DNA of 64,000 bases from Gammaproteobacteria bacterium (lineage in GTDB: Bacteria > Pseudomonadota > Gammaproteobacteria > Steroidobacterales > Rariloculaceae). Both the position numbers and the translations under genes were made by a program. A model generated the notes under the pieces. It saw only the letters and a list, made by a program, of their open reading frames with translations. It was not told the DNA's origin and made no database searches. Position 1 is the stretch's first letter. Every line of letters begins with the position of its first letter. The DNA lies in the NCBI GenBank assembly GCA_036563665.1, contig DATCLY010000043.1:7012-71011 (forward strand), read 5' to 3'. Of this stretch, positions 1-13,762 are shown in pieces.

Positions 1-1643
1 CCGACCTCGCGCACCACCCGCACGGAGACCAGGTTCATCGATTCGACGAGAGCCTCGCGGAGCCGCGTCTCGCCGTGCCAACGGCCCGTGTAATTCTCCG
101 GCCGCCACACCGTCTCGAGCCCCGGATCGTACTGCGGCGGCAGCGGCGCATCGTTCACGATGCTCGCGGTGGTGAAGCCGTTCTCGAGCGCCGCCGAGTA
201 CACGAACGGCTTGAACGCGGAGCCGGGCTGGCGCTTCGACTGCACGGCGCGGTTGAAGTTGCTGAGCCCGAAGTCGATGCCGCCCGCGAGGGCCACGACG
301 GCGCCGTCCTGCGGGTCCACCGAGACGAAGGCGCCTTGCACGTCGGGCACCTGCGCGAGCCGCAGCTTGCCCTCCGAGTCCAGCCGGAAACGCACGATGT
401 CGCCCCGCGCGAGCACGTCCGTCACGGCCTGGGGCCGGGCACCGACCGCGTTGTCATTGATATAAGGGGCGGCCCAGGCGACCGCGTCGAGGCCGATCGT
501 CTGCACGCCGCGGCTGCGCAGGAACACGCGGGCGGAGTCCGGCTGCACGTCGAGCACGAGCGCCGTCTCGAAGCCGAGCAACGACGGGTAGTCGCCGAGC
601 AGCGCCGCCCACTCGCTTTCCGCCGCCGCCGCGTCGCCGCCCTCGTCCTCGGGCAGCGTCACGCGCGCCACCGGCCCGCGATAGCCGTGGCGCTCGTCGT
701 AGGCGATGAGCGCCTGGCGCACGGCGCGATTGGCCGCGGTCTGCAGGCGGCTGTCGATGGTCGTGGTGACCCTCAGGCCCGCGGTGTAGGCGGCGAGGCC
801 GAAGCGTCGCACCATCTCGGCGCGCACCATCTCGGCCACGTACGGGGCGTCGAGCTCGGTCTTCGGGCGGTGCAGCTTCGACAGGATGGGCTCGGCGAGC
901 GCCGCCTCGCGCTCCGCGTCCGTGATCATGCCGAGCTCCCACATGCGGCGCAGCACGTAGGCGCGCCGCGCCGCCGCGTTGGTGGGGCTCGACACGGGAT
1001 TCATGATGGACGGCCCCTGCGGAATGCCCGCGAGAATCGCCGCTTCCGACAGCGTGAGCTCGTGCAGGTCCTTGTCGAAATAGGTGCGCGCGGCCGCCAC
1101 CACGCCGTAGGAGCGCTGGCCGAAGAAGAAGGTGTTGAAGAAGAGCTCGAGGATCTGCTCCTTGGTGAGCTCGCGCTCGATCTGCAGCGCGAGGATCCAC
1201 TCCTTGAATTTCCGCACGACGGATAGTTCGCGCGACAGGAAATACTCCCGAGCCACCTGCTGGGTGATGGTGCTGCCGCCCGGCACCCGCTCGCCGCCCG
1301 TGCGGATGAAGTTGAAGACGGCTCGCGCCGTGCCCACGAAGTCGAGGCCCGGGTGCTCGAAGAAGCGATCGTCCTCGGCCGCGATGAGCGCGTCGATCAG
1401 CACCTGGGGGATGTCCTCGTAGGCAACCGGCGTGCGCCGCTGGTCGCCGAATTCCGCCATGAGCCGGCCGTCGCGGCTGTAGACGCGCAGCGGGATCTGG
1501 AACTGCACGTCGCGCAGCTCCTCGGCATTCGGCAGCGTGGGCGCAACATAGTAGTAGCCGCCGATCACGACCGCCGCCAAAGCGACTCCGCAGGCCGCCA
1601 AACCGGTCAAAAAAGCCAGCGGAATCCGTAGGTAATTACGCAT
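1..1643 (-). CDS. mrcA: Penicillin-binding protein 1A (transglycosylase/transpeptidase), truncated by the left window edge
   Basis: Manual translation from ATG at 1643: MRNYLRIPLAFLTGLAACGVALAAVVIGGYYYVAPTLPNAEELRDVQFQIPLRVYSRDG...AEDDRFFEHPGLD, with transglycosylase motifs GGSTITQQVAR and LSEAAILAGIPQGPS. Divergent from pilM, the usual arrangement. Absent from the ORF track because it runs off the edge. Confidence 0.95.
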   Translation of the reverse strand, partial: MRNYLRIPLAFLTGLAACGVALAAVVIGGYYYVAPTLPNAEELRDVQFQIPLRVYSRDGRLMAEFGDQRRTPVAYEDIPQVLIDALIAAEDDRFFEHPGLDFVGTARAVFNFIRTGGERVPGGSTITQQVAREYFLSRELSVVRKFKEWILALQIERELTKEQILELFFNTFFFGQRSYGVVAAARTYFDKDLHELTLSEAAILAGIPQGPSIMNPVSSPTNAAARRAYVLRRMWELGMITDAEREAALAEPILSKLHRPKTELDAPYVAEMVRAEMVRRFGLAAYTAGLRVTTTIDSRLQTAANRAVRQALIAYDERHGYRGPVARVTLPEDEGGDAAAAESEWAALLGDYPSLLGFETALVLDVQPDSARVFLRSRGVQTIGLDAVAWAAPYINDNAVGARPQAVTDVLARGDIVRFRLDSEGKLRLAQVPDVQGAFVSVDPQDGAVVALAGGIDFGLSNFNRAVQSKRQPGSAFKPFVYSAALENGFTTASIVNDAPLPPQYDPGLETVWRPENYTGRWHGETRLREALVESMNLVSVRVVREV

Positions 1644-1667
1644 TGCCAAATATGGATCCTACGCCCT

Positions 1668-1676
1668 TGCTAAGGT
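1668..1676 (+). promoter_or_regulatory. Candidate extended -10 promoter (TGC-TAAGGT) that would transcribe the riboswitch leader
   Basis: TGn followed by TAnnnT, predicting +1 near 1681-1683, just upstream of the aptamer. No good -35. Confidence 0.35.
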
Positions 1677-1688
1677 TGGGACCTTTGT

Positions 1689-1810
1689 GCATAGTCCGGC
1701 GCGTTGGGCAAACCCATCGAAAGGTGGGGACGCAAAGCCTCCGGTCTAAGGGCTGCATGCGGGAGCGGCTTCCAGCCGTCACCAGCCTAGGATAGCGGGG
1801 CTGCCGATGC
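1689..1810 (+). ncRNA. Cyclic di-GMP-I (GEMM-I) riboswitch aptamer in the pilM leader
   Basis: GGGCAAACCCATC-GAAA-GGTGGGGACGCAAAGCCTCCGGTCTAAG...TAGGATAGCGGGGCTGCCGATG follows the V. cholerae Vc2 aptamer (GGGCAAACCAUUCGAAAGAGUGGGACGCAAAGCCUCCGGCCUAAAC...GUAGGUAGCGGGGUUACCGAUGG) almost base for base. GAAA tetraloop and receptor, G20 (1707), A47 and C92 equivalents are present. Confidence 0.93.
1756..1783 (+). repeat. Degenerate REP-like copy inside the riboswitch variable loop
   Basis: GCGGGAGCGGCTTCCAGCCGT (1759-1779) versus the family GCGGGAGCGGCTTTCCAGCCGCGAT at 17191-17215. Confidence 0.6.
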
Positions 1811-1973
1811 AGTTGAACAGTGTCGCGTTTCCGAGACTGCTCGCCGCTTCGCAGCATTGCGAATCCTTTCCGCCCCTCGACCGAGTCCCTTGCCCACCGG
1901 AAATCCTGTTGCAACCGGGAGGTTCGTTGCACGCATGCTCGCTCGGCTCGAAATACGCTTCGGACCGCGCGCA

Positions 1974-2019
1974 TTAAGTGAGGCTGGTCACAACCTCCCG
2001 TGGCCGCATCGGTTATAGT
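1974..2019 (+). promoter_or_regulatory. CRP/Vfr/Clp-type box with downstream -10 (class II promoter geometry)
   Basis: AGTGA-GGCTGG-TCACA at 1977-1992 (one mismatch to TGTGA-N6-TCACA) and TATAGT at 2014-2019. The box centre falls at -41.5 relative to the predicted +1 (2026). Confidence 0.6.
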
Positions 2020-2085
2020 TAACCGGGGGACTTGAGAGCTCGTATAGGATTCTAACCCAACCGCCCGAGTTGGAAAGGAAAAGCC

Positions 2086-3147
2086 GTGTTCGCCAAGCGT
2101 AGACGGGGCTCCCTCATCGGCCTCGATATCACCACGTCCTCCGTGAAGCTGATCGAGCTCGCCGAGAGCGGCCGGGGCTATCGGGTCGAGGCGTACGCCG
2201 CCGAGCCCACGCCGCCGAACGCCGTCAATGACAAGACCATTGTGGACGCGGAAGCGGTGGGCGAGGCCATTCGTCGCGCGGTGAAGCGCTCCGGCACGAA
2301 GTCGCGCGAGTGCGCCATCGCCATCAGCGGCGACGCCGCGATCACGAAAGTGATCCAGATGCCCAAGAACCTGAGCGAGAACGAGCTCGAAGGCCAGGTG
2401 GAGCTGCAGGCCGATCAGTACATCCCCTTCCCGATGGAAGAGGTGAGCTTCGACTTCGAGGTGCTGGGCGAGAGCGAGCGCGATCCCGACATGATCGACG
2501 TGCTGCTCGTGGCCACCCGCACCGAGAACGTGGAGCAGCGCCAGGCAGCAGTCGAGGCCGCGGGCCTCATGGCGCGGGTCGTGGACGTGGAGGCGTTCGC
2601 GGTGGAGAACGCCTGCCAGCTGCTCACGCATCAGATGCCGGACGGCGGCGCGGACAAGTACATCGCCGTCGTGGACTTCGGCGCGAGCACCACGACCTTC
2701 AGCGTGCTGAAGAACCTCAAGATCATCTACACGCGCGACTTCGCGTTCGGCGGGCAGCAGCTCACCGAGGAGATCATGCGGACCTACGGGCTCAGCATGG
2801 AGGACGCGGGCCGCGCCAAGAAGGAGGGCGGCCTGCCGAGCAACTACCACTCCGAGGTGCTCGACGCCTTCATCGACGACATGTCGCAGCAGGTGAGCCG
2901 CTCGCTGCAGTTCTTCCTCGCCTCCGGCAGCGGCCGGGAGCAACCGGACCAGATTCTCGTGTGCGGCGGCTGCGCCAACATCCCGGGCGTGGCCGACGTG
3001 ATCGGCAGCCGTGTGGGCATCCCGACGGAGATCGGCGATCCGCTCGGCCAGATGAAAGTCTCGTCCCGAGCCAAGTCGATGGGTGTGGACAAGGACGCGA
3101 CGGCGCTCTTGACGGCGTGCGGGCTGGCGTTGAGGAGCTTCGACTGA
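2086..3147 (+). CDS. pilM: Type IV pilus assembly protein PilM
   Basis: IGLDITTSSVKLIEL actin-like N-terminus and ACGLALRSFD end. GTG start with GGAAAGGA SD. Confidence 0.97.
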   Translation: MFAKRRRGSLIGLDITTSSVKLIELAESGRGYRVEAYAAEPTPPNAVNDKTIVDAEAVGEAIRRAVKRSGTKSRECAIAISGDAAITKVIQMPKNLSENELEGQVELQADQYIPFPMEEVSFDFEVLGESERDPDMIDVLLVATRTENVEQRQAAVEAAGLMARVVDVEAFAVENACQLLTHQMPDGGADKYIAVVDFGASTTTFSVLKNLKIIYTRDFAFGGQQLTEEIMRTYGLSMEDAGRAKKEGGLPSNYHSEVLDAFIDDMSQQVSRSLQFFLASGSGREQPDQILVCGGCANIPGVADVIGSRVGIPTEIGDPLGQMKVSSRAKSMGVDKDATALLTACGLALRSFD

Positions 3148-3148
3148 C

Positions 3149-3739
3149 ATGCCAAGAATCAACCTACTCCCGTGGCGCGCAGAGCTGCGCCAGCGGCGTA
3201 AGAAAGAGTTCTTCACGGCCCTGCTCGCCACCGTGCTCTTCGGAGGCCTCTTGGTCTACGCCTCGAAGCTCACGGTGCAGGGCTGGATCTCCACGCAGAA
3301 CAAGCGCAACGAGCTGCTGCGCACCGAGATCGCCGAGCTAGAGCGGCAGATCAAGGAGATCGAGAACCTCGAGACGCAGAAGGCGCGCCTGATCGCCCGC
3401 ATGGAGATCATCGACCGCCTGCAGCGCTCGCGGCCCGAGGTGGTCCACCTCTTCGACGAGATCGTGAACGCGGTGCCGGAAGGCGTGTACCTCACGCAAG
3501 TCACCCAGAGCGACTCGCGCATCCAGATCAAGGGCATGGCGGAATCGAGCACGCGCGTGTCCACCTTCATGCGCAACATCGACAACTCCGAGCACCTGCG
3601 TGACCCGGGCCTCGACGTGGTGGAGACCGTCTCCAGCGGGCCCGGCCGCAGCTCGCAGTTCACGATCTTCGCCAGGCAGGTGCCGATGGCGGAGGAGGAA
3701 CCGGCTGAGGCCCAGACAACGGCGAGGGCGCGGCGATGA
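3149..3739 (+). CDS. pilN: Type IV pilus assembly protein PilN
   Basis: MPRINLLPWR signature (INLLP motif); operon position. Confidence 0.97.
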   Translation: MPRINLLPWRAELRQRRKKEFFTALLATVLFGGLLVYASKLTVQGWISTQNKRNELLRTEIAELERQIKEIENLETQKARLIARMEIIDRLQRSRPEVVHLFDEIVNAVPEGVYLTQVTQSDSRIQIKGMAESSTRVSTFMRNIDNSEHLRDPGLDVVETVSSGPGRSSQFTIFARQVPMAEEEPAEAQTTARARR

Positions 3740-4335
3740 ACATCATCGAAGAACTTCGAACGCTCGACGTCAACGATCCCGGCCGTTGGCCGCTCCCGAT
3801 CCGTATCGGCGCGCTCGTTCTCGCCTTCATCGCCGTGGTCGCGTTCGGCGTGTACATGTTCGTGGTGAAGACCGACATGCCGATCCTCGAGCGCGCGCAG
3901 CAGGACGAGCGCACGCTGCGCGCGACGTTCGAGGAGCGGCAGCGCAAGGCGGCCAACTTCGACGCCTACCGGGCGCAGCTCGCGGAGATCGAGCGGTCGT
4001 TCGGCGCGATGCTCCGGCAGCTGCCCGGCAAGACCGAGGTGCCGAGCCTGCTGGTGGACATCTCGCAGACCGGCCTCGGCGCCGGCCTCGAGGAGAAGCT
4101 CTTCCAGCCGCTCGGCGAGATCCAGAAGGACTTCTACGCCGAGCTGCCGATCAAGATCAGGCTCACCGGCAGCTATCACGAGTTCGGCGACTTCGTGAGC
4201 GGCATCGCGGCGCTGCCGCGCATCGTGACGCTGCACGACATCTCCATCACCCCGGTCGGGAACGGCACTTTCGACGAGCTCCAGCTCGACGTGACGGCGA
4301 AGACTTATCGATACCTCGAAGAGGAAGGGGCATAG
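3736..4335 (+). CDS. pilO: Type IV pilus assembly protein PilO
   Basis: PGRWPLPIR, MLRQLPGKTEVPSLLVDISQTG, FYAELPI, ALPRIVTLHD and AKTYRY motifs; ATGA overlap with pilN. Confidence 0.96.
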   Translation: MNIIEELRTLDVNDPGRWPLPIRIGALVLAFIAVVAFGVYMFVVKTDMPILERAQQDERTLRATFEERQRKAANFDAYRAQLAEIERSFGAMLRQLPGKTEVPSLLVDISQTGLGAGLEEKLFQPLGEIQKDFYAELPIKIRLTGSYHEFGDFVSGIAALPRIVTLHDISITPVGNGTFDELQLDVTAKTYRYLEEEGA

Positions 4336-4337
4336 CC

Positions 4338-4913
4338 ATGAGAGGCACGCGAACCCCCGCCGGTGCGCCCGCACGCAGTGCGAATCGCGTGTGCGCCGCG
4401 CTAGCACCCTCGCGCCCGTGGCGGGCCATCGCCGCGCTCGCGCTCACGGCCGCTCTGGCCGGCTGCGGCAACGACATGGACGACCTGCGCGCCTACATCG
4501 ACGAGGTGAAGGCGCGCCCCGGCGGCCGCATCGAGCCGCTGCCCGAGATTCGCCCGGCGCCGAGCTTCGTGTACGAGGCCGGCAACCGCCGCTCGCCGTT
4601 CGTGCCCGACCGGCCGCAGCGGCGCATCGATCCCGACAACCCGGGCGTGCCGGGCCCGGATCCCGACCGTCCGCCCGAGTTCCTGGAGCAGTTCCCGCTC
4701 GACACGCTGCGCATGGTGGGCACGTTGAACAACTACGGCCTCGTGCGCACGAGCGACGGCCGCGTCCACCGCGTCACGGTGGGCAATCACATGGGCCAGA
4801 ACTACGGGCGCATCACCGCGATCACCGAGTCCGAGATCCGGCTGGTGGAAATCGTCCCCGACGGCTTGGGCGGCTACCTCGAGCGCCCGGCCGCCGTCGG
4901 GCTGGCCGATTGA
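4338..4913 (+). CDS. pilP: Type IV pilus lipoprotein PilP
   Basis: C-terminal part of ORF 3600..4913 from ATG 4338. Lipobox LAGC, then PGGRIEPLP, RRSPF, EFLEQFPLDTLRMVGT and GNHMGQNYG. Confidence 0.93.
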   Translation: MRGTRTPAGAPARSANRVCAALAPSRPWRAIAALALTAALAGCGNDMDDLRAYIDEVKARPGGRIEPLPEIRPAPSFVYEAGNRRSPFVPDRPQRRIDPDNPGVPGPDPDRPPEFLEQFPLDTLRMVGTLNNYGLVRTSDGRVHRVTVGNHMGQNYGRITAITESEIRLVEIVPDGLGGYLERPAAVGLAD

Positions 4914-4937
4914 GCACCGGGCCACAGGTTTTAGGGA

Positions 4938-7070
4938 GTGAACCTTATGAATGAGTCAACTGCCGGCCGGCTCCGCCGGATCGTCGCGACCGCGGGCCTG
5001 CTCGCGAGCGCGGTTTTCTCCTGGTCCGCCGTGCAGGCGCAGAGCTTGCGCCTCGAAGCGATCGACGTGCAGCCGCTTCCCGGGCAGCAAGTCGAGCTCC
5101 GGCTGCGGCTGAACGGTAACGCGCCCGAGCCGTTGTCGTTCACCGTGGACGATCCGGCCAGGATCACCCTCGACCTGCCGGGCACCAGCATCGGCATGTC
5201 GTCGCGCCGCCGCGACGTGAACGTGGGGCCGGTCAACTCCGTGCTCCTGGCGGAGGCGGACGGCCGCACGCGCGTGGTGCTCAACATGTCGGCCCTGGCG
5301 CCCTATCAGACGCGGGTGGCGGGCGACAGCGTGTATGTCACCGTCGGCCAGGGGGTCGCGGCCTCGGCGCCGCCCTCGTTCGCGGGCCAGCCGTCGCGCG
5401 CCACCGCGGGCAGCGGCGGCGTCGTCGCGCAGGGGCCGCGGGCCATCAACAACATCGACTTCCGGCGCGGCCCCGACGGCGCCGGGCAGATCGTCGTGGA
5501 CCTGTCCGACCCGCGCACCACGGTGGACGTGCGGCAGGAAGGCGGCCGCATCGTGGTCGACTTCCAGGACACGACGCTGCCGACCGAGCTCATGCGGCGG
5601 CTCGACGTGACCGACTTCGCGACGCCGGTGTCGACGGTGGATGCGCTGCGCAGCGGCAGCAACGCCCGCCTCGTGGTGACGCCATCGGCCGACTACGAGC
5701 AGCTCGCTTACCAGTCGGACAACGTGTTCACCCTGGAGCTCAAGCCGCCGGTCGAGCAGGAGCGGGAGCCGGGCCTGTTCGACGAGACGAAGGAGTACAC
5801 GGGTGAGCGGCTCACCCTGAACTTCCAGGACATCGAGACGCGCGCGGTGCTGCAGCTGCTCGCCGAGACCAGCGGCCTCAACATCGTCGTGAGCGACACC
5901 GTGCAGGGCAGCGTGACGCTGCGCCTGCAGAACGTGCCGTGGGACCAGGCCCTGGACATCCTCATGACGACCAAGGGCCTCGACATGCGCCGCAACGGCA
6001 ACGTGATGATCGTGGCGCCGGCGGCAGAGATCGCGGCCCGCGAGCAAGCGGAGCTGCAGGCGCGCCAGGCCCTGCAGACGCTCGAGCCGCTGCGTTCCGA
6101 GTTCATCCAGGTGAACTACGCGAAGGCTTCGGAGATCGCCGACTTGATCCGCGGCAGCGGCGGCAAGCCGCTGCTCTCGGAACGGGGTAGCGTCGCCATC
6201 GACGCCCGCACCAACACGCTGCTCGTGCACGACACGAGCGAGAGCCTGGCGAACATCCGCCGGCTCGTGCAGACGCTCGACATCCCCGTGCGTCAGGTGC
6301 TGATCGAGTCGCGCATCGTCATCGTCAACGACGACTACCGGCGCGAGCTCGGCTCGCGCTTCGGCATCACCACGCGCGACGACAACGACCGGCTCGTCGG
6401 CTTCACCGGCAGCGGCTCCGGGGCGAGCCAGCTGCTCACGAATCCGACGCTGACGAGCGTGCCGCTCAGCTCCCGCTACAACGTGAACCTGCCGATCGCG
6501 AGCCCCGCCGGCCAGTTCGGGCTCGCCATCCTGAACGGCGACTACCTCGTGGACCTCGAGCTGTCGGCGCTGCAGGCGGAAGGCAAGGGACGCATCGAGT
6601 CCATGCCGCGCGTCATCACGGCGAACGGCCGCGAGGCGCGCATCGAGCAGGGCGTGGAGATCCCCTATCAGGAGTCCTCGTCGAGCGGCGCCACCACCAC
6701 CCAGTTCAAGGAGGCCGTGCTGTCGCTCACCGTGACGCCGCAGATCACGCCGGACGACCGGATCATCATGGATCTGCTGGTCACCAAGGACTCCGTGGGC
6801 GACGTGGTGCCGAGCGCCACGGGCGGCTTCGTGCCGAGCATCGACACGCGCTCCATCACGACCCAGGTGCTGGTCGACGACGGCGACACCGTCGTGCTCG
6901 GCGGCATCTACGAGAACGAGCGTCGCGACGACGAGAACAAGGTGCCTGTGCTCGGCAACATCCCCGGCATCGGCTACCTGTTCCGGAGCCGCAGCCGCGT
7001 GGACGCCAACGCGGAGCTCCTGATCTTCGTCACGCCCAAGATCCTGCGCGAGGGCGCGCGGGTCAACTGA
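4938..7070 (+). CDS. pilQ: Type IV pilus secretin PilQ
   Basis: Signal peptide, AMIN-like N-terminus, YTGERLTLNFQDIETRAVLQLLA, VPWDQALD, secretin C-domain KVPVLGNIPGIGYLF and ELLIFVTPKI. Start may be GTG 4938 or ATG 4947. Confidence 0.97.
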   Translation: MNLMNESTAGRLRRIVATAGLLASAVFSWSAVQAQSLRLEAIDVQPLPGQQVELRLRLNGNAPEPLSFTVDDPARITLDLPGTSIGMSSRRRDVNVGPVNSVLLAEADGRTRVVLNMSALAPYQTRVAGDSVYVTVGQGVAASAPPSFAGQPSRATAGSGGVVAQGPRAINNIDFRRGPDGAGQIVVDLSDPRTTVDVRQEGGRIVVDFQDTTLPTELMRRLDVTDFATPVSTVDALRSGSNARLVVTPSADYEQLAYQSDNVFTLELKPPVEQEREPGLFDETKEYTGERLTLNFQDIETRAVLQLLAETSGLNIVVSDTVQGSVTLRLQNVPWDQALDILMTTKGLDMRRNGNVMIVAPAAEIAAREQAELQARQALQTLEPLRSEFIQVNYAKASEIADLIRGSGGKPLLSERGSVAIDARTNTLLVHDTSESLANIRRLVQTLDIPVRQVLIESRIVIVNDDYRRELGSRFGITTRDDNDRLVGFTGSGSGASQLLTNPTLTSVPLSSRYNVNLPIASPAGQFGLAILNGDYLVDLELSALQAEGKGRIESMPRVITANGREARIEQGVEIPYQESSSSGATTTQFKEAVLSLTVTPQITPDDRIIMDLLVTKDSVGDVVPSATGGFVPSIDTRSITTQVLVDDGDTVVLGGIYENERRDDENKVPVLGNIPGIGYLFRSRSRVDANAELLIFVTPKILREGARVN

Positions 7071-7246: not shown

Positions 7247-7900
7247 ATGAGCATGCGAGAACAGCGCGGTTTCACTTTGTGGGAACTGATGGTGGCCGTA
7301 GCCGTCGCCGGCGTGGTGCTGGGCATCGGCATTCCCAGCTTCCGCGAGTTCCAGCGCAACAGCGCGATGGCGAGCGCCGCCAACGAGCTCGTCACGGCCG
7401 CGCTGCTCGCGCGCGCCGAGGCCGTCAAGAGGCAGGTGCCGGTGACGCTCTGCCTGAGCACGAGCTTCGATCAGGCCTCGCCCGCATGCGACGACGCGGC
7501 GGCCGCCAACAGCTCCACGGCGGGCTTCATCGTCTGGGTGGACGAAAGCGGGCCCCGGGATGCCAACGGCAGCCCCGTGATCACGGATGCAACCGATGGC
7601 AATCACGAGGTGGACGCGGGCGAGACCGAGATCCTGCGCCGCAGCCCGCCGCCGGGCGGCGCCATCACCATTTCGGCCGACGCAGGATTCGTCACCTACA
7701 TGCCGAGCGGCTATCCGCGCCGGCCTTTCGACGGTCGAGTGGTGCTCTTCTGCGACGACCGCGGCAACCGCGCCGCAGCCGGGCAGTCGAGCGCGCGCGC
7801 CGTGCGCATCGACGCCACGGGCCGGGCGCAGGTCTTCTCCGAGATCGACGACATCAGCGCCGCGCTCGCCGACATCGGCGGCGGAGCCGCTTGCCCTTGA
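7247..7900 (+). CDS. fimT: FimT/FimU (GspH-like) minor pilin
   Basis: Class III prepilin site QRG|FTLWELM, then IGIPSF and ARAEAVKRQVPVTLC. Start trimmed from ORF 7097 to ATG 7247. Confidence 0.9.
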   Translation: MSMREQRGFTLWELMVAVAVAGVVLGIGIPSFREFQRNSAMASAANELVTAALLARAEAVKRQVPVTLCLSTSFDQASPACDDAAAANSSTAGFIVWVDESGPRDANGSPVITDATDGNHEVDAGETEILRRSPPPGGAITISADAGFVTYMPSGYPRRPFDGRVVLFCDDRGNRAAAGQSSARAVRIDATGRAQVFSEIDDISAALADIGGGAACP

Positions 7901-7924
7901 TCCACTGAGCGACGCAGTCGAGTC

Positions 7925-8398
7925 ATGCAACGAGAACGTGGACGATTTCCGACGGGCCACCGCGGCTTCAGCCTGATCGAGGTGATGGTGGCGCTGCTCG
8001 TGTTGTCGGTCGGGCTGCTCGGCATCGCCGCGCTGCACGGGCAAGGGCTCGGCGCGAGCCGCGTCGCCATGTACCGCACGGTGGCGGTCAACCTCGCGGC
8101 CGACATGGCGGAACGCATTCGCGTCAACCGGCTCGGCGGCGGCGCGTACGGCGGCTCGCCGGCCGACAACGAATGCGACCCTCAAACGGGCAGCGGGGTC
8201 GATTGCACGCCGGCCGAGATGGCCGCGCACGACCTCTTCGTCTGGCAGGAGCAGGTCGCGGAGCAGCTGCCGAACGGTTCCGGCGAGGTGCAGTTCGCCG
8301 CCGGCACGCCGCCGACGTACACGATCACCGTGACGTGGGACGAGACCGGCATCGGCGAGACGTCGTACACGACTACCATCGAAGTTCCGGATATCTAG
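7925..8398 (+). CDS. pilV: Minor pilin PilV
   Basis: HRG|FSLIEVMVALLVLSVGLLGIAAL, AADMAERIRVN, DLFVWQ and LPNGSG motifs. Confidence 0.93.
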   Translation: MQRERGRFPTGHRGFSLIEVMVALLVLSVGLLGIAALHGQGLGASRVAMYRTVAVNLAADMAERIRVNRLGGGAYGGSPADNECDPQTGSGVDCTPAEMAAHDLFVWQEQVAEQLPNGSGEVQFAAGTPPTYTITVTWDETGIGETSYTTTIEVPDI

Positions 8399-8401
8399 GC
8401 C

Positions 8402-9409
8402 GTGACCAACATGTGCAACAACAGCGCGGCGATCGGCCGCCTCGGGCAGTGCCGCGGAATGACGCTCGTCGAGCTCATGGTGGCGCTCGCCATCGGCCTG
8501 TTCCTGATGATCGGCGCCATCACCGTTCTGCTGCAGGGCCGCATGACCTTCCGGGTCTCGGAAACGATATCGCGGCTGCAGGAGAACGCCCGCTTCGCGC
8601 TCGACGCCCTCGAGCCCGACATCCGCATGGCGCATTACTGGGGGCTCACGACGCGGCCGCAGAACATCGAAGGGCGCGCGCTGCAGGGCGGCACGGCCTC
8701 CGTGCTGGGGCCGCACGATTGCGGCAACAACTGGCACCTCGACGTCGAGCTCGCCGTGCAAGGCACCGACGGCACCTACACGTGGGCATGCCTCCCGGCC
8801 GTCGGCAACGCCATGGCCGGCGCCGATACGCTCGTCATTCGCCGCGCGAGCCAGAACCCCGTGGTGCCGGCGGCCGGCTGGCTGCACCTGCAATCCGCCC
8901 GCGTCCAGGACTCGAGGATATTCCTCGGCGCGACCGTTCCGGCGGGCTACATCCCGGCCACGTCGCAGACGCACCGGCTCGTCGTCAACGGCTACTACGT
9001 GAGCACCGCGTCCTCGCTCGGCAACACGGTCCCGTCGCTGCGCAGAAAGACGCTCGGCGCCGGCCCCGCCATCCGCGACGAGGAGATCCTGGCGGGCGTC
9101 GAGGACATGCAGATCCAATTCGGCGTGGACACCGATATCGCCGGAGCGGTGAACCGCGGCGTGATCGACCGGTACGTGGATCCGGACGATCCCATCCTCG
9201 ACCGGTCGCACCCGTCGTACATGGAGGATGCCGAGATCCTCGCCGTCCGCATCTGGCTGCGCATTCGTTCGGACCGCCCCGAAACCGGCTACACGGACAC
9301 GGCGACCTACAGCTACGCCGGGCAGAACGTGGGCCCGTTCAACGACGGCTTCCGGCGCCTCGTCGTGTCGAAAACGATCTACCTGCGGAACGCCCGTCCG
9401 CCCATGTAG
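8402..9409 (+). CDS. pilW: Minor pilin PilW
   Basis: CRG|MTLVELMVALAIGL, SRLQENARFAL, DIRMA, GVEDMQIQFGVD and AVRIWLRIRS. Confidence 0.93.
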   Translation: MTNMCNNSAAIGRLGQCRGMTLVELMVALAIGLFLMIGAITVLLQGRMTFRVSETISRLQENARFALDALEPDIRMAHYWGLTTRPQNIEGRALQGGTASVLGPHDCGNNWHLDVELAVQGTDGTYTWACLPAVGNAMAGADTLVIRRASQNPVVPAAGWLHLQSARVQDSRIFLGATVPAGYIPATSQTHRLVVNGYYVSTASSLGNTVPSLRRKTLGAGPAIRDEEILAGVEDMQIQFGVDTDIAGAVNRGVIDRYVDPDDPILDRSHPSYMEDAEILAVRIWLRIRSDRPETGYTDTATYSYAGQNVGPFNDGFRRLVVSKTIYLRNARPPM

Positions 9410-9423
9410 AGGAGTCGAGATCC

Positions 9424-9879
9424 ATGCGACGACATCCCCGCGGCACCCCGCACGGACAGCTTCGGCGACAGACCGGCGCCACGCTGGTCGTCGGGCTCGT
9501 CCTGCTGCTCGTGCTCACGGTCCTCGGCGTCTCCGGCATGAACATGGCGACGCTCGAGATCACGATGGCGAGCAATACCCAGTTCCAGCAGGACGCGTTC
9601 CAGGCCGCCGAGACCGGCATCGACGTGCCGATCGCGCAGCGCAACTTCACGACGTTCGAATCGAGGACGAACGAGGGCACCGTCGGCGACGGCTCCTACG
9701 AGTCGGAGACCGTGTTCGTGGACACCACGCCCGTGCCCGACATCGCGTTCAGCATGGGCACGAGCACCGGAAGCGTCCAAGCGTTTCATTTCAACGTTCG
9801 TTCCGTGGGAACGGGACCGCGGAATGCGGTTTCCACTCACGTGCAGAGCTTTTACATCGTCGGCCCGGGCGGCCCCTGA
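9424..9879 (+). CDS. pilX: Minor pilin PilX
   Basis: QTG|ATLVVGLVLLLVLTVLGVSGM (no Glu5, typical of PilX) and AFQAAETG. ATG 9424 within ORF 8173..9879. Confidence 0.9.
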   Translation: MRRHPRGTPHGQLRRQTGATLVVGLVLLLVLTVLGVSGMNMATLEITMASNTQFQQDAFQAAETGIDVPIAQRNFTTFESRTNEGTVGDGSYESETVFVDTTPVPDIAFSMGTSTGSVQAFHFNVRSVGTGPRNAVSTHVQSFYIVGPGGP

Positions 9880-9901
9880 TCGTAGCTGTGGAGAGGCAAA
9901 G

Positions 9902-10264
9902 ATGAGACGAATGACGCTGGCTGTGGCCGCCGCGTTGCTGTGCGGCGAAGTCTGGGCAGCACGCACGCTCGAGCCGATCGAAGGGGCCCACGAGGTGCGC
10001 CTGACCGATATCGTCCTGCCGCCGGGCCCGGTGGGCTCGCTCATCGTGAGGCCGTGCCCGGAATGCGATCCCGTGTCGCTCCTGGTGGACGGCAACACGA
10101 CGTACTCGCTGGCCGGGCAACCGCCCATCGCGCTGGCCGACTTCACGGTCATCGCGCAGCAGCTCCTGGCGTTGGAGAGCGAAGAAACGAGCTCGAGCGT
10201 GGGGGTGTTCTACTTGCCCGGCTCGATGCGGGCGACTCGGATCGTGCTGTACCCGGCGCGATAG
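9902..10264 (+). CDS. Small secreted protein with CxxC between pilX and pilY1 (possibly PilY2-like)
   Basis: SD GGAGAGG before ATG 9902, signal peptide ending VWA, PCPECDP motif, GC3-rich codon usage. Confidence 0.8.
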   Translation: MRRMTLAVAAALLCGEVWAARTLEPIEGAHEVRLTDIVLPPGPVGSLIVRPCPECDPVSLLVDGNTTYSLAGQPPIALADFTVIAQQLLALESEETSSSVGVFYLPGSMRATRIVLYPAR

Positions 10265-10309
10265 TCGACGTCGCCGGGAGCGCAACGGACTGCTATCGAG
10301 GAATTCCCT

Positions 10310-13300
10310 ATGGAACGCATGACTGCCAAAGTAGCGTCACTGGCCTTGGGCTGCCTCTGGTCGACGGTGGCGATGCTGCCGGCCGTCGCGGAGGACATCG
10401 AGCTGTTCGTCGGCACGACGAACTTCTCGAACTCGGCGCGACCGAACGTCCTGCTGATCCTGGACGACTCGATCAGCATGGACGCCACCCTGATCACGCA
10501 GAACAACTACGATCCGACCAAGACCTACAGCGGTCCGTGCAGCAAGGACTACGTGTACTGGGCTTCCGGGAGCAGCACGACGCCGCCTTCCTGCGGCAGC
10601 AGCAACCGGTTCCGCCTTTCGGACTTGAAGTGCAAGGCCGCGCTCGACGCCTTTGCGGCGCCCGGCGGCGGACTCTACCGCGACATGCTCGCGAGCTACG
10701 ACAGCGGCACGCAAAAGAGGTGGGAAAGCCTCGCGTCGGGCCGGCCGGTGGAATGCAAGGCCGACTGGGGGATCCACGGCGAAACCACGGGCAGCAGCGC
10801 CGTCTATCCCCGTAACGGCAACACCAGCGCGCTATGGACGTCCGGCACCACCAATCGGATAACGTGGGGCCAGAATCCGACCAACACGCACTACTGGATC
10901 TACCACGGCAACTGGCTGAACTGGTATTACAGCCCCGGCACGACGGCGACCCGGCTGCAGGTCGTGAAGGACGTGGCCAACAGCCTGGTGGCTTCGATCG
11001 ACGGCATCAACGTCGGTCTCATGCATTTCAGTCAGACGTCGTCGTCGGGGCCGCACGGCGGGCGCGTCGCGTACGCGATGGAGGACGTGACGACCGCCCG
11101 TTCCGGCATGCAGTCCGCCATCAACGCCTTGACGGCCAGCAAGTGGACGCCGCTGTCCGAGACGCTGTACGAAGCGGCGCTGTACATGCTGGGCAGGCCC
11201 GTCGATCACGGCCTCGCCAACCCGAAGAGCGTGCCCGAGTCGCATTCCGGCGGAACGGCGCCCGTCTATAACTCGCCCATCGACTACTCCTGTCAGAAGA
11301 ACTACATCGTGCTGCTCACCGACGGCGCGCCCACGGGAGACGACGACTCCGACAGCGACATACTCGCGCTGACGGACGCGGAAGGCACGGACTTCCGCAG
11401 CCTGGCGAACATCCCGAGCGGCGGCGTGTGCGATGCCGAGAGCTACGCGGGCATCGACCTGAGCCCGGAACCGGAGGGCGGCGACTGCCTCGACGACCTG
11501 GCCGAGTTCATGTTCAAGGGCGACATGTCGCCGCTGCCCGGCAAGCAGAACGTCGTGACGCACGTCGTCGGCTTCGCCCTGGAGGACCGTAACGGTCAGG
11601 TCGTGAGGCTGCCGGTGCTGCTCGATACGGCGCAGCGCGGCGGCGGCAAGTACTACGAGGCCGTCGACAGCGCCTCGCTGTTCACGACCTTGACCGGCAT
11701 CGTCACGGAGATCCTGCAGACGCAGTCGACCTTCACCTCGCCTGCCGTGTCGGTGAACAGCTTCAACCGCACGCAGAACCTCAACGACCTCTACATCACG
11801 CTGTTCGAGCCGTCCGGCACGGAGCACTGGCCCGGCAACCTCAAGAAGTTCCGCCTGCGTCCGTCCGATGCGGCCATCGTCGACGCGACCGGAAAGCCGG
11901 CGGTCGACCCGGCGACGGGCTTCTTCATCGCCGACTCCCAGAGCCTCTGGGCCGACACCCCGGACGGACAGGACATCAAGGACGCCGGCGCGGCCCACAG
12001 GATCCCGGCCGCGCGCAAGGTGTACACCCATCTGGTCGGCACCGACCTCACGGCCGACGAGAATCGAGTCTCCCTCGACAACATGGACCTCGACGACGGG
12101 CTGTTGAACACCGGCGATCCCGACCAGCCGACGCGCGAGCAGGTAATCAACTTCATCAACGGCCTCGATGCGTCGGACATCGACAACGACGGCGACGTGA
12201 CGGAGCGGCGCAATCAGATGGGAGATCCGCTGCACTCGCAGCCTGCGTCCGTCGTCTACGGACCCACCGTCGACGATGCGATCATCTTCGTCGCCACCAA
12301 CGACGGCTTCCTGCATGCGATCAATGCCCAGGACGGCGTCGAGCGTTGGGCGTTCCTGCCGCCGGAGTTCCTCAAGCAGCAGGTGAACCTGTTCCTCGAC
12401 CAGACCACGCCCATCAAGACGTACGGCATCGACGGCAACGTTCGCGTGCAGGTGCTGGGCAACAACGACGGCGTGATAGACCCGGACGCCGGCGAACGGG
12501 TGTTGCTGTTCTTCGGCATGCGGCGCGGCGAGCACGTCTACTACGGCCTCGACGTCACGAACCCCGATGCGCCGCAATTCCTGTGGCGGCATGACGAGTC
12601 GACGCTCCCCGGCCTCGGGCAGACCTGGTCTTCGCCGGCCCCCACTCGGATCGAAGTGGACGGCTCGGGCCAGAACGAGCACCACCTGGTGGTGGTGCTC
12701 GGCGGCGGTTACGAGCCGGACCAGGACAACTCGGCGGCCAGCACGGACACCGTTGGCAACTCGATCTACATCGTCGACTCCATCAACGGCACGCTGCTCT
12801 GGCACGGCAGCAAGGACGGCCGCGATGCCGATTTCGACCAGAGCGGCAAGAGCATGGACTACTCCATTCCCGCCGACGTCAAGGTCGTGGACTTCGACGG
12901 CGACGGCTATGCCGACCGGATGTACGCGGCCGACATGGGCGGCCAGATCTGGCGCTTCGACGTCTACAACGGCCAGTCGGCGGCCAACCTCGTCACCGGC
13001 GGCGTCATCGCCCAGCTCGGCGCCGCCCCCGCGGCCTCGCCGGCGCTCGCCGACGTGCGGCGCTTCTACTATTCGCCCGACGTCGCGCTCGTGAGCACCT
13101 CGGACGTCCGTTTCATCCACATCGGCATCGGCTCCGGGCACAGGCCTCACCCCCTGAGCAAGGAGAATGCCGACCGGTTCTACGCGCTGCGCGACTTCAA
13201 CGCCCTACGCAAGCTCACGCAGACGGAGTACAACGCGATCACGCCCATCACGGAAGATGATCTCGACATCATCACCGGTGTCAACACGACCGTGGCGAAC

Positions 13301-13741
13301 AACTCGGCCGGGTGGATGCTCCAGCTCGACGCCGCGGCCGGCGAGAAGGTGCTCGCCGAAGCCAGGACGTTCAACAACCAGGTGTTCTTCACGACGTTCA
13401 CTCCGAGCGCGGGTCCCGGCGCAGACCCCTGCGCGCCCACGCTCGGCACGAGCCGCCTGTACGTCGTGAGCCTGTTCGACGCCGCCCCGGTCACGAACCT
13501 CGATGGCTCGGTCGATGATTCGAACCTGACCGAAACCGACCGGTACGTCGAGTTCGGCGGCTCGATCGCGGCCGAGGTCGTGTTCCTGTTCCCGTCGCCG
13601 GAGGATCCGCAGAACTGCACGGGCAGCGAATGCACTCCGCCGCCCGTGGCCTGCGTCGACCTGTTCTGCATGCCGACGGGCTTCGCGAACAACCCCGTGC
13701 GCACGTTCTGGCGTCAGGAGAGCGTCGACAGTTTCGACTGA
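10310..13741 (+). CDS. pilY1: Type IV pilus tip adhesin PilY1 (vWA plus beta-propeller)
   Basis: Signal peptide, RPNVLLILDDSISM (MIDAS), TPLSETLYEA, YIVLLTDGAP, GDPLHSQP, TNDGFLHAI, Ca-loop DFDGDGYADRMYAADMGGQIWRFD. Confidence 0.95.
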   Translation: MERMTAKVASLALGCLWSTVAMLPAVAEDIELFVGTTNFSNSARPNVLLILDDSISMDATLITQNNYDPTKTYSGPCSKDYVYWASGSSTTPPSCGSSNRFRLSDLKCKAALDAFAAPGGGLYRDMLASYDSGTQKRWESLASGRPVECKADWGIHGETTGSSAVYPRNGNTSALWTSGTTNRITWGQNPTNTHYWIYHGNWLNWYYSPGTTATRLQVVKDVANSLVASIDGINVGLMHFSQTSSSGPHGGRVAYAMEDVTTARSGMQSAINALTASKWTPLSETLYEAALYMLGRPVDHGLANPKSVPESHSGGTAPVYNSPIDYSCQKNYIVLLTDGAPTGDDDSDSDILALTDAEGTDFRSLANIPSGGVCDAESYAGIDLSPEPEGGDCLDDLAEFMFKGDMSPLPGKQNVVTHVVGFALEDRNGQVVRLPVLLDTAQRGGGKYYEAVDSASLFTTLTGIVTEILQTQSTFTSPAVSVNSFNRTQNLNDLYITLFEPSGTEHWPGNLKKFRLRPSDAAIVDATGKPAVDPATGFFIADSQSLWADTPDGQDIKDAGAAHRIPAARKVYTHLVGTDLTADENRVSLDNMDLDDGLLNTGDPDQPTREQVINFINGLDASDIDNDGDVTERRNQMGDPLHSQPASVVYGPTVDDAIIFVATNDGFLHAINAQDGVERWAFLPPEFLKQQVNLFLDQTTPIKTYGIDGNVRVQVLGNNDGVIDPDAGERVLLFFGMRRGEHVYYGLDVTNPDAPQFLWRHDESTLPGLGQTWSSPAPTRIEVDGSGQNEHHLVVVLGGGYEPDQDNSAASTDTVGNSIYIVDSINGTLLWHGSKDGRDADFDQSGKSMDYSIPADVKVVDFDGDGYADRMYAADMGGQIWRFDVYNGQSAANLVTGGVIAQLGAAPAASPALADVRRFYYSPDVALVSTSDVRFIHIGIGSGHRPHPLSKENADRFYALRDFNALRKLTQTEYNAITPITEDDLDIITGVNTTVANNSAGWMLQLDAAAGEKVLAEARTFNNQVFFTTFTPSAGPGADPCAPTLGTSRLYVVSLFDAAPVTNLDGSVDDSNLTETDRYVEFGGSIAAEVVFLFPSPEDPQNCTGSECTPPPVACVDLFCMPTGFANNPVRTFWRQESVDSFD

Positions 13742-13762
13742 TGACGCTCGACGACCAAGGAA

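What the first reader, a model, noticed from the sequence alone, without database searches (positions are those of the whole stretch)
1689..1810. Cyclic-dinucleotide (GEMM-I) riboswitch heading the whole type IV pilus machinery locus
Seen: a near base-for-base match to the Vc2 c-di-GMP-I aptamer, on the pilM strand about 275 nt upstream of pilM. Established: G at aptamer position 20 selects c-di-GMP and A20 selects 3',3'-cGAMP; here it is G (1707). GEMM-type control of pilus genes is known in Geobacter and Clostridioides, but pilMNOPQ in model Gammaproteobacteria is not known to me to be riboswitch-controlled. Inference: c-di-GMP directly gates pilus biogenesis at RNA level in this lineage. 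No clean U-tailed terminator follows, so the expression platform is unclear. Candidates are a weak TCGCA/TGCGA hairpin near 1849-1862, a 9-bp long-range stem 1916-1924/1992-2000, or Rho.
Basis: partly seen in the sequence, partly recalled or inferred. Interest (0 to 1): 0.8.

Follow-up and report, generated by a model that had tools for sequence, protein, structure and literature searches.

The report
c-di-GMP riboswitch before pilMNOPQ operon
A genuine RNA sensor for the bacterial signal molecule cyclic-di-GMP sits in the long leader of the type IV pilus assembly operon of an uncultured soil gammaproteobacterium; it is a sound, lineage-restricted new example of a known kind of switch, and the operon also keeps a second promoter that bypasses it.

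Summary
Window 1697-1808 (+) matches Rfam c-di-GMP-I (RF01051) over the full model at 76.1 bits against a cut-off of 35. The ligand-contact bases are G20 (1707), A47 (1734) and C92 (1804). The aptamer lies 278 nt upstream of pilM, on the pilM strand. A conserved sigma-70-like promoter sits directly upstream of it.

Orthologous aptamers precede pilM in 65 of 78 close relatives, all Steroidobacterales-like MAGs. They occur in 23 of 68 genomes drawn evenly from the order. None was found in 91 other families of the class. A PilM tree requires at least 6 independent losses.

The aptamer's 3' strand can pair with a conserved downstream segment. This helix covaries in 19 close relatives: 91.5% of cells pair and 4 pairs show compensatory changes. 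A C-rich, G-poor tract follows it, and there is no U-tract terminator. The genome as a whole has few canonical terminators. The polarity of the switch (ON or OFF) and any role of Rho remain unresolved.

A conserved CRP-type class II promoter lies between the riboswitch and pilM. The switch can therefore gate only transcripts from the distal promoter.

GEMM-pilM association has been published since 2007, and the Geobacter pilM (cGAMP) riboswitch is a studied model. Verdict: a new member of a known kind, of modest interest.

The parts
1667..1695 (+). Distal promoter-like element P1: -35 TTGCTA (1667-1672), 17-nt spacer, -10 CATAGT (1690-1695). The predicted transcript start is about 1701-1703, a few nt before the aptamer core.
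   Evidence: Read from the sequence. It scores 8 of 12 matches, below the 9 of 12 needed by the scan. TTGnnn-N16-18-CATAGT/CATATT lies directly upstream of the aptamer in 62 of 79 loci, with 10-16 nt between the -10 and G20. Most loci that lost the aptamer keep it. The promoter function is inferred.
1697..1808 (+). c-di-GMP-I (GEMM-I) aptamer. The first hairpin is 1713-1728 with a GAAA tetraloop at 1719-1722. Closing pairs are G1708-C1733 and C1709-G1732. The second hairpin is 1736-1802. Ligand-contact bases are G1707 (G20), A1734 (A47) and C1804 (C92).
   Evidence: Rfam RF01051, 76.1 bits against a gathering score of 35, full model. RNAalifold on 59 orthologues gives 23 pairs, 10 of them with compensatory changes. 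Own model R1 scores it at 85.7 bits.
1751..1788 (+). Lineage-variable extension of the second hairpin's loop, containing a small internal hairpin at about 1765-1779 (GCGGCU-UCC-AGCCGU).
   Evidence: The Rfam alignment shows a 28-nt insertion. Orthologues carry loop inserts of about 0-45 nt with unrelated sequence. blastn-short finds no repeated copy in the 4.1-Mb genome, so it is not a REP-type repeat.
1800..1855 (+). Anti-aptamer (competitor) helix. 1800-1825 pairs with 1832-1855 as an imperfect rod. It consumes the 3' strand of the second hairpin, C1804 (C92) and the P1 3' strand. The conserved 3' arm is GCUUCGCAGC at 1846-1855.
   Evidence: It forms part of the unconstrained MFE fold of 1701-1875 (-70.8 kcal/mol). 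The aptamer-constrained fold is -67.7. The rod alone is -24. In 19 close loci the outer 10 pairs are 91.5% paired, and 4 pairs have changes on both sides. No shuffle of 500 reaches this, and slid controls give 23-54%.
1848..1871 (+). Small hairpin UUCGCA/UGCGAA (1848-1853/1858-1863) followed by UCCUUUCC (1864-1871). This is a weak terminator-like element specific to this window, and it overlaps the 3' arm of the rod.
   Evidence: dG -6.4. It forms in the aptamer-constrained fold. No counterpart exists in the aligned relatives.
1856..1915 (+). C-rich, G-poor tract after the rod, a candidate Rho loading (rut) region.
   Evidence: 1854-1915 holds C 25 and G 12. The 60-nt C-G skew is 0.35, about the 99th percentile of random 60-mers in this genome. 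A similar tract (skew about 0.25-0.43) follows the rod in most of the closest relatives. Rho involvement is inferred.
1978..2019 (+). Proximal promoter-like element P2. A CRP/Clp/Vfr-type palindrome GTGA-N6-TCACA lies at 1978-1992 and a -10 TATAGT at 2014-2019. The site centre (1984.5) is 41.5 nt upstream of the transcript start predicted at about 2026.
   Evidence: From the sequence. Both elements are conserved blocks in the leader alignment, including in loci without the riboswitch (L020, L023, L063, L065). A perfect GTGA-N6-TCAC precedes pilM in 43 of 80 close loci, 29 of 67 of the order sample and 0 of 91 of the class sample. The genome encodes 3-4 CRP/FNR-type regulators. Function is inferred.
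2057..2088 (+). Conserved 5'-UTR hairpin CCAAC-N7-GUUGG (2057-2073), Shine-Dalgarno AAGGA (2075-2079) and the GTG start of pilM (2086).
   Evidence: This block is conserved in the alignment of the window with 24 close loci.
2086..7070 (+). pilM (2086-3147), pilN (3149-3739), pilO (3736-4335), presumed pilP (4391-4954) and pilQ (4938-7070).
   Evidence: TIGR01175 PilM at E 2.5e-114 and TIGR02515 PilQ at E 2.3e-157. PF05137 PilN and PF04350 PilO. The pilP ORF has no family hit and is named by position only.
3..1649 (-). Divergent mrcA (PBP1A), 5' part. The likely ATG is at 1643-1641.
   Evidence: NF008643 MrcA at E 2.8e-156.

Best explanation
Window 1697-1808 encodes a functional class I cyclic-di-GMP riboswitch aptamer with a G20 pocket. 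It is transcribed from its own distal promoter (-10 at 1690-1695) as the start of a leader of about 385 nt for pilMNOPQ.

When the ligand is absent, the aptamer's 3' strand (1800-1810, including the ligand-pairing C1804) pairs with a conserved downstream segment (1846-1855). This forms a long rod (1800-1855) that is mutually exclusive with the binding pocket. Bound c-di-GMP locks the aptamer and prevents the rod. The two folds decide whether RNA polymerase from the distal promoter continues through the C-rich leader into pilM.

I favour the rod acting as the attenuating structure, through non-canonical or factor-assisted termination. High c-di-GMP would then raise pilMNOPQ transcription, making this an ON switch like the Geobacter pilM riboswitch. 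A second, CRP-type class II promoter about 60 nt upstream of pilM supplies transcription independent of the riboswitch. The RNA therefore adds a c-di-GMP input rather than being the sole gate.

Shown: the aptamer identity, its conservation and covariation, the covarying anti-aptamer helix, and the taxonomic distribution. Inferred: the promoters, ligand binding, the attenuation mechanism and the polarity.
For: - **Aptamer.** Rfam hit at 76.1 bits over the full model, with G20, A47 and C92 present.
- **Structure in orthologues.** 23 consensus pairs, 10 with compensatory changes, in 59 orthologues.
- **Conservation near pilM.** On the same strand, 220-360 nt upstream of pilM, in 65 of 78 close loci plus 3 decayed relics. 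Also in 23 of 68 genomes drawn evenly from the order.
- **Model check.** My model recovers all 8 paralogous GEMM-I copies in this genome at 60-86 bits, so the negative results are meaningful.
- **Distal promoter.** A promoter-like element is directly upstream in 62 of 79 loci.
- **Anti-aptamer helix.** 91.5% paired, 4 compensatory pairs, 0 of 500 shuffles, slid controls 23-54%.
- **Energetics.** The rod-containing fold (-70.8) and the aptamer fold (-67.7) are nearly iso-energetic.
- **No third element.** No conserved block lies between the rod's 3' arm and the CRP site in the leader alignment. This fits a two-state design like Geobacter pilM, whose terminator and aptamer are mutually exclusive and which is an ON switch (PMC9262584).
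- **Signalling context.** The genome has 22 GGDEF domains and 8 GEMM-I aptamers.
Against: - No RNA data exist for this organism.
- For single sequences, complementarity between the aptamer's 3' strand and the downstream 110 nt is no better than in shuffled GC-rich sequence (median z -0.5). The helix therefore rests on conservation and covariation in only 19 related loci.
- The rod is not followed by a U-tract, so intrinsic termination is doubtful.
- In this window a small hairpin (1848-1863) plus UCCUUUCC could act as a terminator that forms only when the aptamer is closed. That would make the switch OFF.
- A 6-bp P1 can be drawn in the window, but its register is not conserved (34% paired).
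- The proximal promoter can bypass the switch.
- At least 6 independent losses show the switch is dispensable.
Confidence: 0.65

Rival explanations
1. OFF switch. The rod is an anti-terminator or anti-rut structure. When c-di-GMP closes the aptamer, the freed C-rich 3' arm and the following C-rich tract recruit Rho. In this window the freed arm can also form the small hairpin 1848-1863 with its UCCUUUCC tail. Transcripts from the distal promoter then stop before pilM.
For: In the aptamer-constrained fold the 3' arm forms the hairpin 1848-1853/1858-1863 followed by a pyrimidine tail. A C-rich, G-poor tract at the 99th percentile of skew follows the rod here and in most of the closest relatives. 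The genome has few canonical terminators, 42 against 6 in shuffles under a strict rule and no excess under a lenient rule. Factor-dependent termination is therefore plausible. From my own knowledge, the known Rho-dependent riboswitches (mgtA, ribB, lysC) are OFF on ligand binding.
Against: The small hairpin is not conserved in any aligned relative. Closing the aptamer lengthens the single-stranded C-rich stretch by only about 10 nt, because the inner rod (1812-1844) can still fold. The characterised pilus-associated cyclic-dinucleotide riboswitch read here is an ON switch (Geobacter pilM).
Confidence: 0.22
2. The aptamer is not a transcriptional gate for pilM. Instead it is part of a short stand-alone RNA from the distal promoter. 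Ligand binding changes that RNA's stability or 3' end, as reported for Vibrio cholerae Vc2. pilMNOPQ would be expressed essentially from the proximal CRP-type promoter.
For: The proximal promoter is conserved with or without the aptamer. No canonical platform was found. The aptamer has been lost at least 6 times without loss of pilM.
Against: The position and strand relative to pilM are strictly conserved over many families, at 220-360 nt upstream. The covarying anti-aptamer helix is typical of a cis-acting platform. The distal promoter is kept even where the aptamer is gone, which suggests it feeds pilM.
Confidence: 0.08
3. The copy in this window is a decaying, non-functional relic.
For: Relics and deletions of the aptamer occur in related loci: L035, L074 and L077 at 28-40 bits, and L067, L068 and L087 with partial deletions.
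Against: The window's copy scores 76 bits in Rfam and 85.7 bits with the orthologue model. It keeps every invariant column of the 59-sequence alignment and the three ligand-contact bases.
Confidence: 0.04

Closest known systems
c-di-GMP-I riboswitch (GEMM-I, Rfam RF01051), e.g. Vibrio cholerae Vc2
   Same: It has the same two-hairpin aptamer, with a GAAA tetraloop and a receptor-like CUAAG/UAGG motif. It keeps G20, A47 and C92 and matches the full Rfam model at 76 bits. As with Vc2 (my own knowledge), no clean intrinsic terminator follows.
   Different: The second hairpin carries a 28-nt lineage-specific loop extension. The downstream genes are pilMNOPQ rather than tfoY. The platform is a long covarying anti-aptamer rod followed by a C-rich tract.
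Geobacter metallireducens / G. sulfurreducens pilM riboswitch (GEMM-Ib, 3',3'-cGAMP ON switch; PMC9262584)
   Same: It has the same fold and the same downstream operon type (pilM...). An alternative helix uses the aptamer's 3' strand and is mutually exclusive with the binding pocket.
   Different: The Geobacter RNA has A20 and senses cGAMP. Here position 20 is G in the window and in all 58 regex-selected orthologues aligned with it; the regex required G at this position. Geobacter uses a canonical intrinsic terminator, and none is present here. The phylum differs, and a second, CRP-type promoter lies downstream of the switch here.
GEMM-associated pilus genes listed at the discovery of the motif (Weinberg et al. 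2007, PMC1950547, Table 2: pilM, pilO, pilQ)
   Same: The same association of a GEMM RNA with pilM, pilO and pilQ.
   Different: That paper names Geobacter for the pilus association. Within gamma-proteobacteria it describes GEMM as ubiquitous in Alteromonadales and Vibrionales. The Steroidobacterales-like order was not covered.
Rho-dependent riboswitches (Salmonella mgtA Mg2+, E. coli ribB FMN, lysC); own knowledge
   Same: A long untranslated leader with a C-rich, G-poor tract downstream of the sensor and no U-tract terminator.
   Different: No Rho dependence has been shown here. My literature search found no report of a c-di-GMP-I riboswitch acting through Rho.

Membership tests
c-di-GMP-I riboswitch (Rfam RF01051) | Covariance-model score above the curated gathering score, over the whole model | tested here: met
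   76.1 bits against 35, model positions 1-87 of 87, E 3.7e-13.
c-di-GMP-I riboswitch (Rfam RF01051) | Two-hairpin secondary structure maintained by compensatory changes in relatives | tested here: met
   RNAalifold on 59 pilM-upstream orthologues gives 23 pairs, 10 with changes on both sides. One example is columns 20/33 with UA 29, CG 23 and UG 7.
c-di-GMP-I riboswitch (Rfam RF01051) | Ligand-contact nucleotides G20, A47 and C92 (Vc2 numbering) | tested here: met
   G1707, A1734 and C1804 by the Rfam alignment. The corresponding columns are invariant in the 59-sequence alignment. The selecting regex fixed some of them, including the G at position 20.
c-di-GMP-I riboswitch (Rfam RF01051) | Sense orientation in a 5' leader of the regulated gene, downstream of a promoter | tested here: met
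   It lies on the pilM strand, 278 nt upstream of the GTG. A conserved promoter-like element ends 12 nt before G20. The promoter function is inferred.
c-di-GMP-I riboswitch (Rfam RF01051) | Binds c-di-GMP with high affinity and selectivity | not testable with these tools
   This needs in-line probing or ITC of the 1695-1815 RNA.
c-di-GMP-I riboswitch (Rfam RF01051) | Expression platform whose fold competes with the aptamer | tested here: inconclusive
   A covarying anti-aptamer helix is present. There is no canonical terminator and no RBS sequestration. Single-sequence complementarity is no better than chance. The output mechanism is unknown.
GEMM-Ib (3',3'-cGAMP) riboswitch, Geobacter type | Adenine at position 20 | tested here: not met
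   Position 20 is G in the window (1707). It is also G in all 58 aligned orthologues, but the selecting regex required G there. None of the regex-negative upstream sequences printed shows an A at this position in a recognisable core.
Class II CRP-dependent promoter (context element P2) | TGTGA-N6-TCACA-like palindrome centred near -41.5 relative to the transcript start | tested here: inconclusive
   The sequence geometry fits. GTGA-N6-TCACA lies at 1978-1992 and its centre is 41.5 nt from the start predicted from TATAGT at 2014-2019. It is conserved within the order. The transcript start and regulator binding are untested.
   blastn-short of 1746-1795 against the 4.1-Mb assembly finds only itself, plus 12-19-nt and a few longer imperfect (up to 26-nt) chance-level matches.

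The most novel reading that the evidence does not exclude
Across one order of uncultured soil and sediment Gammaproteobacteria, pilMNOPQ is wired to two nucleotide signals through tandem promoters. A distal transcript would be gated by a c-di-GMP-I riboswitch whose platform works without an intrinsic terminator, via Rho acting on the C-rich leader. That would be the first Rho-coupled c-di-GMP riboswitch. A proximal class II promoter would be driven by a CRP/Clp-type regulator. If that regulator is Clp-like and itself binds c-di-GMP, the operon would read the same messenger twice, with possibly opposite signs.
Probability: 0.15. Interest if true: 0.55.

Novelty: new member of a known kind. Interest (0 to 1): 0.35.

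Why it matters
This adds a c-di-GMP (G20) counterpart to the cGAMP-sensing Geobacter pilM riboswitch. The same RNA fold has been placed in front of the same pilus-assembly operon in an unrelated lineage, an order of widespread but uncultured soil and sediment Gammaproteobacteria. The association is clade-restricted: absent from 91 other sampled families of the class, and lost at least six times within the clade. The platform lacks a terminator, and a second CRP-type promoter follows the switch. Together these make the locus a workable case for studying how GC-rich bacteria with few intrinsic terminators couple riboswitches to transcription. It also shows how RNA and protein inputs are layered on pilus biogenesis. 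It does not change the picture of what GEMM-I riboswitches are or which gene classes they control.

Tried and rejected
1. **RNA-seq support.** No RNA run holds the stretch; only DNA metagenomes do.
2. **Canonical terminator or promoter scan of 1500-2300.** No terminator was found. The only promoter hit is on the minus strand at 2076-2049.
3. **Single-sequence test of complementarity.** I compared the aptamer's 3' strand with the next 110 nt against dinucleotide shuffles. The result was not significant (median z -0.5, 3% of loci at p<=0.05). I therefore rely on covariation instead.
4. **A conserved P1 helix.** A 6-bp P1 (1701-1706/1805-1810) can be drawn in the window. In 59 orthologues only 34% of cells pair in that register, no better than shuffled or slid controls. 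I rejected it as a conserved feature.
6. **Leader peptide.** The window has a 55-codon ORF from ATG 1808 to TAA 1975. In relatives the start codon, its type and the length (24-70 codons) vary, and there is no Shine-Dalgarno at a workable spacing. The common stop position is simply the A/T-rich -10 region. I rejected it as chance.
There are no other copies in the genome.
8. **cGAMP (A20) subtype.** Rejected, because position 20 is G.

Full report
**Observation**

Rfam cmscan of the 64-kb window returns two hits. One is a tRNA at 55175-55247 (-). The other is c-di-GMP-I (RF01051) at 1697-1808 (+), scoring 76.1 bits against a gathering score of 35 (E 3.7e-13). It covers the whole model and has a 28-nt insertion in the loop of the second hairpin.

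I anchored Vc2 numbering on the G21-C46 and C22-G45 closing pairs and on A47.

The gene layout around the aptamer is as follows.
- mrcA (PBP1A) is divergent at 3-1649 (-).
- pilM is at 2086-3147 (GTG start, TIGR01175 E 2.5e-114).
- pilN is at 3149-3739 and pilO at 3736-4335.
- An ORF in the pilP position is at 4391-4954. It has no family hit.
- pilQ is at 4938-7070.
- After a gap of about 200 nt, a minor-pilin cluster follows (pilV-like, pilW and others).

**Organism and signalling context**

The closest PilM-encoding records are all MAGs. They are labelled uncultured Gammaproteobacteria, Steroidobacteraceae, Woeseiaceae or Candidatus Rariloculaceae, with 79-90% PilM identity. The DNA is found in soil and mangrove metagenomes.

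The genome (4.14 Mb, 95 contigs) carries 8 GEMM-I aptamers, including a tandem pair, and 22 GGDEF domains. Forty of 41 relatives carry 2-15 GEMM-I aptamers each.

**Conservation upstream of pilM**

I built a covariance model (R1) from 59 pilM-upstream aptamers. It recovers all eight paralogous GEMM-I copies of this genome at 60-86 bits. It is therefore a general GEMM-I detector, and its negative results carry weight.

| Sample | Loci assessed | Aptamer upstream of pilM |
|---|---|---|
| Closest species-representative loci | 78 (of 80) | 65 strong (55-98 bits), plus 3 sub-threshold relics (28-40 bits) |
| Even sample of the order | 68 | 23, in 11 families; none in about 10 other families |
| Even sample of the class, one genome per family | 91 | 0 (best 14.3 bits, E 0.13; filters off) |

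The strong matches in the closest loci lie on the pilM strand, 220-360 nt upstream of pilM. Five lower-scoring ones were confirmed above the Rfam gathering score. Several of the remaining loci show partial deletions of the aptamer.

A PilM tree of 79 loci places aptamer-bearing loci on both sides of the midpoint root. Aptamer-less and relic loci are nested inside aptamer clades. Well-supported branches force at least 6 changes of state. The simplest reading is presence in the ancestor of this clade, followed by repeated decay.

**Aptamer structure**

RNAalifold on the 59 sequences reproduces the GEMM-I fold with 23 pairs. Ten of these have compensatory changes, concentrated in the tetraloop hairpin and the distal part of the second hairpin.

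The loop of the second hairpin carries inserts of about 0-45 nt with unrelated sequence in different lineages.

A 6-bp P1 (1701-1706/1805-1810) can be drawn in the window. That register is not conserved: 34% of cells pair, no better than controls.

**Promoters**

*Distal promoter.* Directly upstream of the aptamer lies a conserved element, TTGnnn-N16-18-CATAGT/CATATT. In the window this is TTGCTA at 1667-1672 and CATAGT at 1690-1695. It is present in 62 of 79 loci, with 10-16 nt between the -10 and G20. Most loci that lost the aptamer retain it. It predicts a transcript start at about 1701-1703.

*Proximal promoter.* Between the riboswitch and pilM lies a second conserved module.
- GTGA-N6-TCACA at 1978-1992, a CRP/Clp/Vfr-type palindrome.
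- TATAGT at 2014-2019.
- The palindrome centre is 41.5 nt from the start predicted from that -10, which is the class II CRP geometry.

This module is conserved in loci with and without the aptamer. It occurs as a perfect GTGA-N6-TCAC in 43 of 80 close loci, 29 of 67 order-sample loci and 0 of 91 class-sample loci. The genome has 3-4 CRP/FNR-family regulators.

Both promoters are inferences from sequence. If the proximal one is real, the riboswitch can gate only transcripts from the distal promoter.

**Expression platform**

No hairpin plus U-tract terminator is present. In the leader alignment, the only conserved block between the aptamer and the CRP site is GCUUCGC(C)AGC, which is 1846-1855 in the window. 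It is complementary to the aptamer's 3' strand, GCUGCCGA(A/U)GC, at 1800-1810.

In the window this closes a long imperfect rod, 1800-1825 paired with 1832-1855. Its dG is -24 kcal/mol, and it pairs C1804 (C92) with G1851.
- The rod is part of the unconstrained MFE fold of 1701-1875 (-70.8 kcal/mol).
- The aptamer-constrained fold is -67.7, so the two states are nearly iso-energetic.

Across 19 close loci, the outer 10 pairs of the rod behave as follows.
- 91.5% of cells are paired.
- Four pairs have changes on both sides.
- None of 500 shuffles reaches these values.
- Slid registers give 23-54% pairing.

One caution applies. For single sequences, the complementarity is no better than in shuffled GC-rich sequence. 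The helix therefore rests on comparative evidence from related loci.

More distant groups of the order have different but analogous partners for the aptamer's 3' strand. Examples are CCAGACC...GGUCUG and GCCGGUCNGGACGAU...AUCGUC...GACCG.

**What follows the rod**

A pyrimidine-rich, G-poor tract follows the rod. In the window, 1854-1915 has C 25 and G 12. The skew of 0.35 is at the 99th percentile of random 60-mers from this genome. Most of the closest relatives show a similar tract, and the effect is weaker in one distant group.

Canonical terminators are rare in this genome. A strict rule finds 42 against 6 in shuffles, and lenient rules find no excess. The lack of a U-tail is therefore uninformative. 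Factor-dependent or non-canonical termination is plausible.

I found no report of a Rho-coupled c-di-GMP riboswitch.

**Polarity**

Two readings remain open.

*ON.* The rod is itself the attenuator, so c-di-GMP prevents it and allows read-through. This is favoured by the two-element design. Nothing else is conserved downstream that could serve as a separate terminator. It is also favoured by the Geobacter pilM precedent, where the aptamer and terminator are mutually exclusive and the switch is ON (PMC9262584).

*OFF.* The rod is protective. Closing the aptamer frees the C-rich arm for Rho. In this window the freed arm can also form the small hairpin 1848-1863 with its UCCUUUCC tail. That hairpin is not conserved.

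I put ON at roughly twice the odds of OFF, but neither is shown.

**Other ideas checked**

The window has an ATG-started 55-codon ORF at 1808-1975. Comparable ORFs in relatives vary in start codon and length and lack a usable Shine-Dalgarno. They end where the A/T-rich -10 region supplies stop codons. I treat these as chance ORFs in GC-rich DNA.

**Comparison with what is known**

The paper that defined GEMM already lists pilM, pilO and pilQ among gene families associated with the motif in more than one instance. It names Geobacter pilus genes (PMC1950547). The G. metallireducens pilM riboswitch is a biophysically dissected cGAMP ON switch (PMC9262584).

The present RNA differs in four ways.
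- It has G20, so the predicted ligand is c-di-GMP.
- It has no intrinsic terminator.
- It lies in a different phylum.
- It is followed by a second, CRP-type promoter.

It meets every sequence-testable criterion for c-di-GMP-I membership and fails the A20 criterion of the cGAMP subtype.

An earlier follow-up in this scan, on a sister genome, reached the same general verdict: a genuine riboswitch with a riboswitch-independent promoter, and modestly new. I treated it as a lead and re-derived the points independently here.

**Verdict**

This is a real riboswitch, well conserved within one order. It is a new member of a known kind. The mechanism of its platform and its polarity are open. The claim that it gates the whole pilus machinery is overstated, because of the proximal promoter and the repeated evolutionary loss.

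- Interest: 0.35.
- Confidence that it is a c-di-GMP-I aptamer: above 0.95.
- Confidence that it acts in cis on pilMNOPQ transcripts from the distal promoter through the anti-aptamer helix: about 0.65.
- Confidence that it is an ON switch: about 0.45.

Noticed in passing
G000 contig C78:93192-93502 (-), loci L003/L005: Two GEMM-I aptamers lie in tandem about 110 nt apart (starts about 210 nt apart). They sit upstream of a lipoprotein with a Pro/Thr-rich linker and Ig/FN3-like repeats. Similar pairs with starts spaced about 200-230 nt apart appear in many same-genus genomes, for example G002:C8:61851/62056, G003:C9:1106144/1106343, G013:C11:372802/373011, G016:C8:398978/399180 and G021:C2:1718215/1718412.
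   Followed up: partly
window 1978-2019: A CRP/Clp/Vfr-type palindrome GTGA-N6-TCACA is centred 41.5 nt upstream of the start predicted from TATAGT. It is conserved upstream of pilM within this order (43 of 80 and 29 of 67 loci) but was not found in 91 other families of the class. It is also present in loci that lack the riboswitch.
   Followed up: partly
whole genome G000: Canonical hairpin plus U-tract terminators are rare. A strict rule finds 42 against 6 in shuffled sequence, and lenient rules find no excess. Most transcription units in this organism probably end by other means.
   Followed up: partly
window 2057-2073: A CCAAC-N7-GUUGG hairpin lies immediately before the pilM Shine-Dalgarno. 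It is conserved at the sequence level across close relatives, including those without the riboswitch. Its function is unknown.
   Followed up: no
G000 C74:46616-46702 (-), C93:148184-148269 (-), C74:27732-27815 (-), C68:175964-176046 (+), C22:19019-19106 (+): These are the other five single GEMM-I aptamers of the genome. Three precede a lipoprotein with Ig/FN3-like repeats, an FAD-binding oxidase-like protein and a secreted right-handed beta-helix protein, judged by eye from the translations. For the other two, the downstream frames were not resolved. None is followed by a clear U-tract terminator.
   Followed up: partly
window 7279-14212: A minor-pilin cluster follows pilQ on the same strand after a gap of about 200 nt. 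It includes a pilV-like gene at 7925-8398, pilW at 8402-9409 and a 1143-aa ORF at 10310-13741 in the pilY1 position. Whether riboswitch-gated transcripts reach it is unknown.
   Followed up: no
window 4391-4954: The ORF in the pilP position has no Pfam or NCBIfam match at E <= 0.001. It may be a divergent PilP, or its start may be miscalled.
   Followed up: no
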